A stretch of DNA of 64,000 nucleotides, taken from Eledone cirrhosa (lineage: Eukaryota). Below are positions 29,549-59,971 of the stretch, piece after piece. Position numbers and translations under genes: made by a program. Every line of letters begins with the position of its first letter. Within the stretch, counting starts at the first letter, position 1. Under the pieces are notes generated by a model. That model was not told the origin of the DNA. It saw nothing but the letters and a program-made list of their open reading frames with translations, and did no database searches. The stretch is taken from the NCBI GenBank assembly GCA_964016885.1, contig OZ024747.1, positions 48,546,001-48,610,000 of the forward strand, written 5' to 3'.

Positions 29549-29638
29549 CATATTACATATGTTTCACTGTCGATCAACTCGAGGAGCGATCTATTATTGA
29601 TCGAACCTGACTCTGGAATCGAAAGATTTTCAAATATT
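29549..29638 (-). ncRNA. Type I hammerhead with long branched helix II (family F); duplicate at 32449-32538
   Basis: ATAT-TTGAAAA-TCTTTCGAT...ATCGACAGT-GAAA-CATATG-TA-ATAT. Confidence 0.7.
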
Positions 29639-30287
29639 CCCCGGTATATAAGCTCGTCTCCGATTGTGTGAAAATGTCATCAGTAGCTTGTTATATTCAG
29701 TACATTCTAACAACGTGGTATTTTGCATCCGTTCATTGGTTCGTTATTCTTCCCACCATCAGTCTATCCCTCATCCGGTCAAGTTGTCACGTACATTCTT
29801 GCATGAAACACTGTCTACCTCTCTTCCACTGCCACACTTACTTGAAGCGTTCGTTAGGCTATAAGTTATACTTAGGATTGGTTGTTGATAACAGGTAGTG
29901 GGAGGGGGGCGGCTACATTTTAGACATGAGAGACAAGACAAATCCAGACTTACACACACATATCTCTGGCATGCATGTACTCATATACAGATCTCTACAT
30001 ATACTCATATACACACATAGACATACACATATATACATATACACATACATATACATACACACACATATATATATATATATATATATATACACACATATAC
30101 ACATACATACATATATACACATACGTACATATATACACACCCACACACCACATACACATAAACACATATATTTACACACACATTCACACACACACGCGTA
30201 TATATATATATATAGCATATATATATATATATATATATATATATATATATATACACTTATATATATATATATATATATATATATATA

Positions 30288-30567
30288 GCAGAGTATAAAA
30301 GTTTTAATATAGATGAGATTCTACAGGACTAGAACTGTTTCATTCATTAGAAATCATCAGGAATATATATATATATATATATATACGTTATTCCGGGTTG
30401 AATCGGAGGTAACCACAGTAAGTAAGGTACTCAATACATAGCAGAGTATAACAGTTTTAATATATATGAGATTCTACAGGACTAGAACTGTTTCATTCAT
30501 TAGATTCCTGATGATTTCTAATGAATGAAACAGTTCTAGTCCTGTAGAATCTCATCTATATTAAAAC
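30288..30567. mobile_element. Cluster of family A HHR repeats including a foldback pair (30454-30567)
   Basis: Minus copy 30316-30364; intact plus HHR ~30502-30552; further copies at 33228-33277 (-) and 56205-56256 (-). Confidence 0.85.
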
Positions 30568-31660
30568 TATATATATATATATATATATATATATATATAT
30601 ATATGTGTGTGTGTGTGTGTGTGTGTGTGTGTGTGTGTGTGTGTGTGTGTGTGTGTGTGTGTGTGTGTGTGTGTGTGTGTGTGTGTGTGTGTGTGTGTGT
30701 GTGTGTGTGTGTGTCTGTATTTAAAAGGTAAACAGAAATAACAACACAATCGGTACAGTATATGGAAGGAATATATTAGGTTAACGTTTGAAATAGCAGA
30801 AAGAAGGTCTTAAAGTTTCGGCACTAGTCCTTCATCAGAAGAAAGAATGAGAAATTAGATAGATTGAAGGGAAGACGAGGTGATGTAGTTAATGAATCAA
30901 TTAGTTTACGATCGTTTCAGAAAGTGTAGACCAATTGAAAAACCAAATCCATTCTGACGTATACTTCACAAAATCAATTTGCTTCGATGGGATATTTACA
31001 TCAACACTATATCGAGTTTTAAACTGTTCATAAATCCTACCATGATTAAGTAGAACACCAGTGTATATATATATATACACAAAACAACGAACAGCGGAGA
31101 AACACGTTTCGCACCTTTCCGACAGACAACCCCCCCACCCCCCACGGAAAAACCCCAGTTGATGGATGTGAATCCGAAATATATAGGGACAATTAAATCT
31201 CTCCCAAGGTAACTCTATCTCGTTGTTATTTTTTTTTATCCTTTACGCTCTTTCCTACATTCTTCTACACGCTACAGTCTTCTACACGCCACGCATCTCA
31301 ACGTACACCCACTTACATCTCTCTCTCCACCACCGGATCTTGTTACCCGGAGATTTACCCATCTGCATTGTCGAGGCTTCCAAACGACTTAAAGAAATTT
31401 ACCTTATTATTCCACAATGCTTCAAGCAAACTTCTATACTCTAATCTCTCTCTCTCTCTCTCTCTCTCTCTCTCTCTCTCTCTCTCTCTCTCTCTCTCTC
31501 TCTCTCTATATATATATATATATATATATATATATATATATATATATATATATATATATATATATGTATATATATATATATACATATATATATATATATA
31601 TATATATATATATATATATACACACACACACACATATATATATATATATATATATATATA

Positions 31661-32360
31661 AGTGTATTGCAAAATACATTATATATACATCCATATATAT
31701 ATTGCTATTTCAGAGCTCCAATTCTAATTTTTAATTTCTGCCTGACAAACAACCGCTCTGCATAATCAGCTCCTGATTATTTACTAGATTTCTATAAGAA
31801 TATAACATCAATGATCTCAGTAAACAGGTGGGGTAGTTGGTCTTGATAAGCTTCAACCAAAGCGAAACAAGTCTTGTCGGCTTATCTCCCCTGTTTGCTG
31901 AGATCAAAGTGAGTGAATTTGTCACTACTTTAAAACAATAGCTTACGGTCTTCAAAATGCTTTTAATTAAGAATAAAGTGTATTGCAAAATACATTATAT
32001 ATACATCCATATATATATTGCTATTTCAGAGCTCCAATTCTAATTTTTAATTTCTGCCTGACCAACAACCGCTCTGCATAATCAGCTCCTGATTATTTAC
32101 TAGATTTCTATAAGATTATAACATCAATGATCTCAGTAAACAGGTGGGGTAGTTGGCCTTGATAAGCTTCAACCAAAGCGAAACAAGTCTTGCCGGCTTA
32201 TCTCCCCTGTTTGCTGAGATCAAAGTGAGTGAATTTGTCACTACTTTAAAACAATAGCTTACGGTCTTCAAAATGCTTTTAATTAAGCATAAAGTGTATT
32301 GCAAAATACATTATATATACATCCATATATATATTGCTATTTCAGAGCTCCAATTCTAAT
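31661..32360 (+). mobile_element. Duplicate retrozyme-like array (2 monomers + 68 bp)
   Basis: Unit starts at 31661, 31977, 32293; second HHR has GCC instead of GTC at 32192-32194. Confidence 0.85.
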
Positions 32361-58064: not shown

Positions 58065-58500
58065 TTACCTTCTTTTCTTTTGGCAATATTCGCACGATTT
58101 CTCGAATACCTGCCGCATTGTGAATATTTGCTCGGCTGTGCCGCATCTGAGGTGAAAACCACACTGTTCATCAGCTAGCTTGGACTCAACAATCTCCCTG
58201 CGTCTCTTTGCCAGACACTTAGCATAGACTTTACCAGGGAGGCTTAACAAGGAGATCCCTCTGTAATTGGAACAATCTCTCTTGTCTCCCTTTTTGAAAA
58301 TTGGGATTATCACTCCCGATTGCCATTGCTTAGGTGCCTTTCCAGAGATCCAGGCCACACCCGGCATACACGAGTCAGTCAGAGAATATCTTCTCTATTT
58401 AAGGCTTTCAACATCTCGGGTCGGATTTCATCTTCTCTAGCGGCTTTGCCACATTTGAGCTCTTTAACTGCTCTTGTGACCTCAGTCTCTGAGAGATTAG
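58065..58500 (-). pseudogene. RTE-clade LINE RT fragment
   Basis: EIRPEMLKAL, WQSGVIIPIFKKGD..CSNYRGISLLSLPGKVYA, EQCGF. Confidence 0.85.
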
Positions 58501-58709
58501 TCACTGCCCTCAGATGCACCTTGTGTACAAGGAAGGGGTGTTTGACGATTTTTCCCGCACAACCCTCTCAGAAACAAGTGGGCGAGGAAGAAGAAAGAAA
58601 GTCTCCAGGTGTCAACTAAATCCAATGGAGATGACGTCATTCTACGTTTCTTCTGAAAAAACTGATTCCAAAGACTGAATGAAATAACTTAAAACTTCTC
58701 ATTGACACC

Positions 58710-59525
58710 ATGATGATGATGATGATGATGATGATCATCATCATCATCATCGTCATACTCAGTATCGTCATCGTCGTCGTGATCGTTATCATCGTCATCA
58801 TTGTCGTGGTTATTATCACCAGCACCAGCAGAATCACCACCACCAACACCACCACCACCCACCACCAGCACCACCACCACCACCACCGCCACCAGCAGAA
58901 TCACCAACACAACCAACACCACCACCCACCCACCAACACCACCACCACCACCCACCACCACCACCCACCACCACCCACCACCACCACCACAACCACCCAC
59001 CCACCAACACCACCCACCACCACCAACACCAGCACCACCAGCAGCACCACCAGCAGCAGCACCACCACCACCACCACCAGAATCACCAACACAACCAACA
59101 CCACCACCACCACCAACACAACCACCCACCACCACCAACACCACCAGAATCACCAACACAACCAAAACCACCACCCACCCACCAACACCACCACCACCAC
59201 CAACACAACCACCACCACCAGCACCACCACCACCACCACCAGCACCAGCACCACCAGCAGCACCACCACCAGCACCACCACCACCAGCAGCACCACCACC
59301 ACCACCACCACTACCACAACTATCAGCAACACCACCATCATCACCACTACCAACACCACCACTACCACCATCATCACCACTACCAACATCACCACCAACA
59401 ACATCACCACCACCACTAGCACCACCACCATCACCACCACCAGCACAACTATCAGCACCACCACCAACAACCCCACCACCACCACCACCACCACCACCAC
59501 GATCATCTCCTCCTCCTCCCCCTGC
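58710..59525. repeat. (ATG)n/(CAT)n/(CCA)n compound repeat
   Basis: Direct read. Confidence 0.92.
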
Positions 59526-59880
59526 TTCTCATCCCCCCACTCCAATATTATAATTTCATCTATTCCTATATTTGCTGACGTTTAATGTATAATTAAATAA
59601 ATAAGAATATAAAGCTATTTCTCTGTTGCTTTATTTCTTGCTTTTTTCCTTGTTATTCGTCTCATTCTTTACCATTCTCCTTCTTCTTTTCCTCCCTCCC
59701 TCCTATCACCATGCTTCCATCAAACGGAAATCGTTATCAAATAGATTCCGATAGTATATATATATATAATTGGTGTTGGATGCTTAAAGCGTCCGTATGA
59801 GCACTCGATGCCCTCGTAGGGCAGAGTATGATATCACGGAAAAAAGAGAATCAGTGTTGCGACGAAAGGAATTTATTGGA

Positions 59881-59971
59881 CATATTACAATTGTTTCTCG
59901 GGCGACCAGCTCGAGGCACGATCGATGTGGTGATCAAACCTGACTCTGAAATCGCGCGGTCCTCGGATACG
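59881..59971 (-). ncRNA. Diverged family F hammerhead with C3-G8 core (U4 mutated to C)
   Basis: CGTAT-CCGAGGA-CCGCGCGAT...GTCGCCCGA-GAAA-CAATTG-TA-ATATG; homologous to 29549-29638. Confidence 0.65.

What the first reader, a model, noticed from the sequence alone, without database searches (positions are those of the whole stretch)
29549..59971. Natural C3-G8 to U3-A8 core swap and palindrome-preserving change between two homologous hammerheads (family F)
Seen: 29549-29638 (-) and 59881-59971 (-) are clearly homologous (shared TCAGT.TTGC, CTCGAGG, GATC.AACCTGACTCTG.AATCG). One core reads TTGAAAA and the other CCGAGGA, so positions 3 and 8 change together. Helix III changes ACATATGT to ACAATTGT and stays palindromic. 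Helix II, a ~60-nt branched insert, keeps pairing. Inference: selection on catalytic structure. The 59.9-kb copy has U4C and may be dead.
Basis: partly seen in the sequence, partly recalled or inferred. Interest (0 to 1): 0.72.

Follow-up and report, generated by a model that had tools for sequence, protein, structure and literature searches.

The report
Decayed Penelope hammerhead, not core swap
These are two copies of a hammerhead (self-cutting RNA) motif at the tail of a jumping gene with thousands of copies, a kind already known; the apparent paired swap in the core of one copy is likely chance decay, while the other copy's odd core letter is shared by hundreds of copies and likely did not stop the element from spreading.

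Summary
The letters are as described, but the headline reading fails. Both motifs are type I hammerheads with a self-complementary helix III at the 3' end of a Penelope-type retrotransposon family (3,056 framed matches in a 3.0-Gb genome). Genome-wide, positions 3 and 8 vary independently: C3-G8 2,303, U3-G8 64, C3-A8 72, U3-A8 5 (two are the window copy and its tandem duplicate); 2.2 expected, p = 0.16-0.34 after removing these. The 29.6-kb copy's own subfamily reads CUGAGGA; that copy is a decayed member. The 59.9-kb copy's U4C is not a private lesion: 466 framed copies and about 70% of an 800-copy sister subfamily carry it. Between subfamilies helices I-III do covary, so selection on the fold is supported, though one amplified lineage lost the palindrome. 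Natural U3-A8 cores and palindromic-helix-III PLE hammerheads are published (PMC4209133, PMC3088659); real U3-A8 families exist elsewhere in this window. The scan had noted U4C PLE hammerheads in other genomes and U3-A8 families in this one. Cleavage untested. Low interest.

The parts
29547..29640 (-). Type I hammerhead motif, subfamily A, decayed copy: stem I 5' strand 29640-29634, core U3-U4-G5-A6-A7-A8-A9 29633-29627, helix II 29626-29566, GAAA 29565-29562, palindromic helix III 29562-29555, predicted cut after A17 (29554), stem I 3' strand 29553-29547
32447..32540 (-). Identical duplicate of the 29.6-kb motif (not an independent event)
59879..59973 (-). Type I hammerhead motif, subfamily B1: 7-bp stem I (59973-59967 with 59885-59879), core C3-C4-G5-A6-G7-G8-A9 59966-59960, helix II 59959-59898, palindromic helix III 59894-59887, predicted cut after A17 (59886)
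   Evidence: (0 differences from the B1 majority over the motif)
59755..60311 (-). 5'-truncated 3' end of the Penelope-type element (non-coding 3' region, hammerhead, common 3' end near 59831, extra tail to 59755, then TA repeat)
29495..29981 (-). 5'-truncated 3' end of the subfamily A element, ending on a TA microsatellite (5' limit approximate)
28743..33298 (.). Local tandem duplication (28743-30385 matches 31656-33298 at 96%) that doubled the 29.6-kb copy

Best explanation
Both sites are 3'-end copies of one large Penelope-type retrotransposon family that carries a type I hammerhead motif predicted to cut only as a dimer, and the U3-A8 core of the 29.6-kb copy is likely two independent post-insertion mutations, not a selected swap. 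Shown: family size, anatomy, RT plus GIY-YIG coding remnants upstream in longer B-lineage copies, 5' truncation, TA-repeat targets, independence of positions 3 and 8, lineage-wide U4C, covariation of helices between subfamilies. Inferred: only source elements are under selection, so paired changes appear between subfamilies while single copies drift; two tandem motifs pair through the self-complementary helix III and cut after GUA (GUC in subfamily J) to process the element RNA; the selection is loose, since U4C (known to slow but not abolish cutting in a viroid), a mismatched 10.1-11.1 pair and a U.U-mismatched helix III all spread.
For: 2x2 over the family frame: C3-G8 2,303 (466 + 1,837), U3-G8 64, C3-A8 72, U3-A8 5 of 2,444; expected 2.2; one-sided Fisher p 0.064 as is, 0.16 with the tandem pair collapsed, 0.34 without the query. 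The four independent U3-A8 cases sit on four different subfamily backgrounds. Subfamily A, 89 exact-frame matches: 9 U3, 5 A8, 3 both, of which 2 are the window pair; p 0.22 for the rest (tallied by eye). Subfamily J (800 matches): A8 in 10 of 57 U3 copies against 10 of 87 C3 copies among the first 100 listed, p 0.22; on a tree built without the core the 17 U3-A8 rows need 15 changes (shuffled mean 16.3; 83 of 500 as low). The window copy differs from the A majority at 9 of 134 sites, 8 of them transitions, with G7A next to G8A; L040 and L058 share its altered stem I strand yet keep CUGAGGA. PLE membership: RT motifs read in L135 and an uninterrupted 197-aa stretch in L140 with GIY-YIG (Pfam E 0.0014, below cut-off) and CCHH-like residues, 41% identical to another PLE endonuclease in the window, about 1.9 kb upstream of the motif. 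Structure: 90% of cells paired, 11 of 34 pairs with double-sided changes, covariation 0.271 against 0.160 shuffled and at most 0.084 slid; G5, A6, A9, G12, A13, A14, A15.1, U16.1 invariant in 13 of 13 subfamily representatives.
Against: U3-A8 counts run about 1.5-2-fold above expectation in all three tests (5 vs 2.2; 10/57 vs 10/87; 1 vs 0.24), never significant and expected from age differences between copies, but a small excess is not excluded. U3 is commoner in subfamily A (7 of 87) than family-wide (69 of 2,444). Two diverged copies (L207, L208) share U3-A8 and group together (100/99); they were found through a U3-A8 pattern and their subfamily was not sampled further. The exact-match frames miss diverged subfamilies (C and most of J fall outside the first frame). 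The ORF link was shown for the B lineage only. 19 of 42 helix II paired columns are also invariant, so core invariance is not by itself proof of selection; the shuffle control ignores relatedness. No cleavage or expression data.
Confidence: 0.85

Rival explanations
1. One reading: the 29.6-kb copy descends from a source element in which C3-G8 was replaced by U3-A8 under selection for cleavage, perhaps through a U3.G8 wobble step.
For: U3-A8 restores the 3-8 pair and is a published natural variant (PMC3088659 section 8; PMC4209133). U3 is raised in subfamily A (7 of 87); one more A-type U3-A8 copy exists (C24:9845638); L044 (U3-G8) is the nearest row in an unsupported FastTree that included the core.
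Against: No dispersed sibling has TTGAAAA (only the tandem pair); joint counts fit independence; relatives sharing its stem I change keep C3-G8; its stem I duplex is predicted at +0.1 kcal/mol against -3.7 for a near-majority A copy.
Confidence: 0.07
2. The motif no longer needs to cut in this family: the fold is kept as a protein-binding or priming structure, or by inertia, and U4C, C3.A8 and non-palindromic lineages are catalytically dead yet mobile.
For: U4C in at least three places on the subfamily tree; 13 of 30 upstream-picked B-lineage copies have ACATTTGT (dimer helix -2.9 vs -6.4 kcal/mol); 7 copies with C3.A8 share one subfamily background; pair 10.1-11.1 is unpaired in 9 of 14 rows; in the Anolis PLE, core mutants did not affect insertion in vitro and no reads ended at the cut site (PMC11167929, passages); in one hammerhead all CUGA-turn mutants but the G-C swap had low activity (PMC9901934, passages).
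Against: Eight core positions are invariant and C3-G8 is the majority state in every subfamily sampled without bias; 4 of 5 helix III variants are self-complementary (36 of 256 random 4-mers would be); U4C kept enough activity in vivo in a viroid (PMC3088659 discussion passage).
Confidence: 0.3

Closest known systems
Hammerheads in pseudo-LTRs of metazoan Penelope-like elements, variants with a small palindromic helix III (Cervera and De la Pena 2014, PMC4209133; seen: parts 1-2 of 4 of the text, no supplements)
   Same: Type I layout, short self-complementary helix III predicted to need a dimer, enlarged helix II, thousands of mostly solitary truncated copies in consensus families with covariation, head-to-head pairs; a U3-A8 core family (about 1,300 hits) reported in Schistosoma.
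   Different: Helix II is much longer here (60-63 nt); G10.1-C11.1 is kept only in subfamily J; U4C is lineage-wide in several subfamilies (not mentioned in the parts read); the motif lies about 1.9 kb downstream of the ORF end.
Natural core variants of the hammerhead (Perreault et al. 2011, PMC3088659; seen: section 8 and passages)
   Same: U3-A8 covariation, a U10.1-U11.1 mismatch and (citing Ambros and Flores 1998, not held) a viroid U4C variant with low in vitro but sufficient in vivo activity are all described.
   Different: There U4C is a single viroid variant; here it marks retrotransposon lineages of hundreds of copies.
Poseidon element of Anolis carolinensis, PAc (Frangieh et al. 2024, PMC11167929; seen: passages)
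   Same: Penelope/Poseidon-type RT plus GIY-YIG element with a hammerhead, AT-rich targets and two 3' ends separated by a tail; 3-8 pair tested by single and double mutants.
   Different: PAc's motif overlaps the start codon and was shown to cut with protein help; nothing is assayed here.

Membership tests
Type I hammerhead ribozyme (PLE variant) | Core CUGANGA / GAAA / NUH in order, with 3-8 pair | tested here: met
   Majority CUGANGA in 1,837 framed copies (non-C at 4); window B copy deviates by U4C, window A copy by U3-A8
Type I hammerhead ribozyme (PLE variant) | Three helices around the core, supported by covariation | tested here: met
   double-sided changes in 3 of 7 stem I pairs, 5 of 22 helix II pairs, 2 of 4 helix III pairs among 14 rows; stem I weak in the 29.6-kb copy
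Type I hammerhead ribozyme (PLE variant) | Self-complementary helix III allowing a dimer | tested here: met
   Met in both window copies and 4 of 5 variants; not met in lineage B2, ACATTTGT
Type I hammerhead ribozyme (PLE variant) | G10.1-C11.1 pair | tested here: not met
   U.U in the 29.6-kb copy, C.A in the 59.9-kb copy; standard pair in 5 of 14 rows. U.U is a tolerated natural variant
Type I hammerhead ribozyme (PLE variant) | Match to an Rfam hammerhead model | tested here: not met
   No hammerhead model hit at E up to 10 on either site; the long helix II and short helix III likely fall outside the models
Type I hammerhead ribozyme (PLE variant) | Self-cleavage after position 17 | not testable with these tools
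   Needs an assay
Penelope-like element (EN+, C-terminal GIY-YIG) | RT followed by C-terminal GIY-YIG endonuclease with CCHH residues | tested here: met
   Broken ORF in longer B-lineage copies: RT motifs read by eye in L135 (motif names recalled; Pfam RT not hit), GIY-YIG Pfam E 0.0014 below cut-off, 41% identity to another PLE endonuclease. Not shown for subfamily A or J
Penelope-like element (EN+, C-terminal GIY-YIG) | 5' truncation, inverted head-to-head pairs, tail at one end, microsatellite targets | tested here: met
   after the common 3' end B copies run into TA repeats in 18 and the tail in 14 of 35, A copies 13 and 1 of 15 ends that the pattern read
Penelope-like element (EN+, C-terminal GIY-YIG) | Full-length copy with motif in both pseudo-LTRs; clade by RT phylogeny | not tested
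   No intact full-length copy among the fetched loci; Penelope/Poseidon clade is inferred from domain layout only
Compensatory C3-G8 to U3-A8 lineage | U3 and A8 co-occur above independence and mark a clade | tested here: not met

The most novel reading that the evidence does not exclude
This family has repeatedly fixed U4C in source elements (J, C, B/E4C lineages; well over 1,000 copies) while keeping the other core letters, and its 60-nt helix II or the element's protein restores cutting of a CCGANGA core; together with amplified C3.A8 and non-palindromic lineages it is a natural allelic series that shows which hammerhead features a Penelope element needs to transpose.
Probability: 0.25. Interest if true: 0.5.

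Novelty: new member of a known kind. Interest (0 to 1): 0.2.

Why it matters
The title claim would not have been new even if true: natural U3-A8 cores are in print, also for Penelope-like elements. The useful result is methodological (two paralogous copies cannot show covariation; the 2x2 over 2,444 copies removes it) and one lead: lineages with U4C, a broken 10.1-11.1 pair or a non-palindromic helix III amplified, which bears on the open question of whether PLE hammerheads must cut for transposition.

Tried and rejected
Alternative register (copy A's ACCGGGGA as the core homologue): rejected, fixed 12-nt spacing to the shared block and family alignments place TTGAAAA on CUGAGGA. A seeming U3-A8 subfamily (about 17 TTCGACAA-type hits): dissolved into scattered decay of the 800-copy subfamily J, where C7-G8 is a CpG. 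The PLE ORF in L099, L103, L119 and window 18970-19656 as the parent: no continuous homology to the motif. TAGAAAA-type hits (L166-L170, L209, L210): no hammerhead second half, other repeats. Rfam: only microsatellite and hairpin noise among the 150 of 236 rows shown, nothing on the two sites. PDB search with the RT piece: 0 hits; Atlas: unnamed clusters, one with GIY-YIG in 11% of members. Papers not held: PMC5785218 (Lunse et al. 2017, the closest study of dimer cleavage by PLE hammerhead variants), PMC147498, PMC1986816. Bias note: majority cores printed for J2, J4 and G, and rows G (C3.A8) and J1 (U3.G8), come from copies fetched for those very cores and are not subfamily states; C, E4C and I rest on 1-2 copies.

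Full report
Observation. On the minus strand, 29640-29547 reads stem I strand, core TTGAAAA, a 61-nt arm, GAA-ACATATGT-A, stem I strand; 59973-59879 reads the same with core CCGAGGA, a 62-nt arm and ACAATTGT. The two are about 74% identical over 130 nt. The cores differ at positions 3, 4, 7 and 8. Helix II folds as a single bulged hairpin in both, in the same register. A third, identical copy of the first lies 2,900 nt away in a tandem duplication. The window is animal-like repeat-rich DNA in a 3.0-Gb assembly with many other hammerhead motifs.

What carries the motif. Searches of the own genome gave 1,666 and 2,311 first-look candidates for the two copies (40 scored each) and 3,056 exact matches to a shared frame against 1 for the control. 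Copies are 5'-truncated, end on TA repeats or continue into a short tail, and often stand head to head. [quoted passage not shown] This is the layout of a Penelope-like element (recalled, and as described in PMC4209133 and PMC8557442, passages). The ORF link was not traced for subfamilies A or J.

The 3-8 test. With G5, A6, A9 fixed in the frame, whole-genome counts are C3-G8 2,303, U3-G8 64, C3-A8 72 and U3-A8 5, two of them the window pair. Independence predicts 2.2; p is 0.064, 0.16 with the pair collapsed and 0.34 without it. Compensation predicts few single mutants and many doubles; the reverse is seen. In subfamily A alone 89 matches give 9 U3, 5 A8 and 3 both, p 0.22 without the window pair. 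A looser search for U3-A8 gave 37 hits, about 17 of them in a sister subfamily J, which at first looked like a real swap lineage. J has 800 exact matches with majority CCGACGA; A8 occurs in 10 of 57 U3 copies and 10 of 87 C3 copies of the first 100 listed, p 0.22; on a 120-row tree built without the core the U3-A8 label is not clustered (15 changes for 17 rows, 83 of 500 shuffles as low; few columns, weak support). Residual doubts: all tests lean slightly above expectation, U3 is raised in A, and the pair L207/L208 may belong to an unsampled old subfamily.

The 29.6-kb copy differs from the A majority at 9 of 134 sites, 8 transitions, including G7A. Its stem I is predicted at +0.1 kcal/mol against -3.7 for a near-majority copy and -5.2 for the 59.9-kb copy; that stem change is shared with L040 and L058, which keep CUGAGGA.

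U4C. All 30 fetched best matches to the 59.9-kb copy have C4 (biased toward the query), 466 framed copies have CCGANGA, and 72 of the first 100 J copies have C4 (counted by eye). C4 makes a CpG, so decay removes it; its abundance means source elements carried it (inference). On the subfamily tree it appears in J, C and the B/E4C branch (C and E4C rest on 1-2 copies). So the 59.9-kb copy is a faithful member of an amplified lineage; whether it cuts is open.

Selection on the fold. Among 13 natural subfamily representatives plus the window A copy, 90% of cells pair and 11 of 34 pairs change on both sides; covariation 0.271 against 0.160 (shuffles, which ignore relatedness) and at most 0.084 (slid controls). 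Helix III variants ATAT, AATT, GCGC and GATT (with G.U) are self-complementary; ATTT is not, and was found in 13 of 30 B-lineage copies picked by upstream sequence and read by the pattern (9 of 39 loci missed; energies). Pair 10.1-11.1 is unpaired in 9 of 14 rows. Eight core columns are invariant, but so are 19 of 42 paired helix II columns.

Mechanism. Most likely two motifs in a tandem transcript pair through helix III and cut after GUA, trimming the element RNA, slowly and perhaps only with the element protein, as found for the Anolis element, where cutting was not needed for insertion in vitro (PMC11167929, passages). All of this is inferred; nothing was assayed.

Known work. PMC4209133 (parts 1-2 of 4 read) describes palindromic-helix-III PLE hammerheads, dimers and a U3-A8 family. 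PMC3088659 (section 8 and passages) describes natural U3-A8, U10.1-U11.1 and viroid U4C. PMC9901934 (passages) reports low activity for CUGA-turn mutants. PMC6765202 (passages) reviews the dimer model. Searches for 'hammerhead' with 'U4C' returned only PMC3088659, and with CCGA-type core strings nothing relevant among 15 of 187 listed; the most pertinent paper (PMC5785218) and supplements were not seen, so U4C in PLEs may be in print. Earlier notes of this scan report U4C PLE hammerheads in two other genomes and U3-A8 families in this one.

Verdict. Real motifs of a known kind; headline covariation is an artefact of comparing two copies; modest lead in lineage-wide U4C. Interest 0.2.

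Noticed in passing
window 14653-14706 (-) and 14742-14795 (+): Head-to-head pair of small hammerheads with a U3-A8 core (TTGAAAA) and palindromic helix III ACCGGT; the core is TTGAAAA in 12 of 13 relatives among held loci: a genuinely fixed U3-A8 family, unrelated to family F.
   Followed up: partly
window 39751-39850 (+), 9861-9961 (-); L058:1891-2020: Hammerhead family with long helix III and 9-bp stem I; TTGAAAA in 7 of 8 relatives, CTGAAGA in one homologue (L058). This is a better candidate for a true 3-8 swap between lineages than family F, on one copy only.
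   Followed up: partly
window 28601-28660, 28917-28976, 29235-29294, 31831-31890 (+): Hammerhead with TTGATAA core in ~317-nt local tandem repeats inside the duplication; a 78% homologue in L148 also has U3-A8. Tandem spacing resembles retrozyme-like repeats.
   Followed up: partly
G000 C1:174075283, C2:104331479, C2:155619984, C2:407097627, C4:112370522, C6:93680587, C21:12241181 (L110-L115): Seven dispersed copies share a C3.A8 mismatch core on one subfamily background, more than the 3% background suggests; possibly a small lineage that amplified with a broken 3-8 pair. Denominator not counted.
   Followed up: partly
window 11161, 23835-23952, 30310-30558, 33223, 56200; 11660, 11764, 13463; 18324, 18455, 49067; 60774: Further canonical-core hammerhead families (CTGATGA / CTGAAGA), several as inverted pairs.
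   Followed up: no
window 18970-19656 (+) and 19801-21024 (-): Fragments of two other Penelope-like ORFs (RT; RT C-terminus plus GIY-YIG).
   Followed up: partly
window 571-3738 (-), 50081-53485 (-), 5583-7300: Broken LINE-type ORFs with endonuclease and RT motifs, and a 44-nt minisatellite of about 40 copies.
   Followed up: no
window 60305-60445; L132, L133: A ~140-nt dispersed SINE-like repeat abuts the 5' end of the 59.9-kb fragment and sits inside the 3' non-coding region of some longer copies.
   Followed up: no
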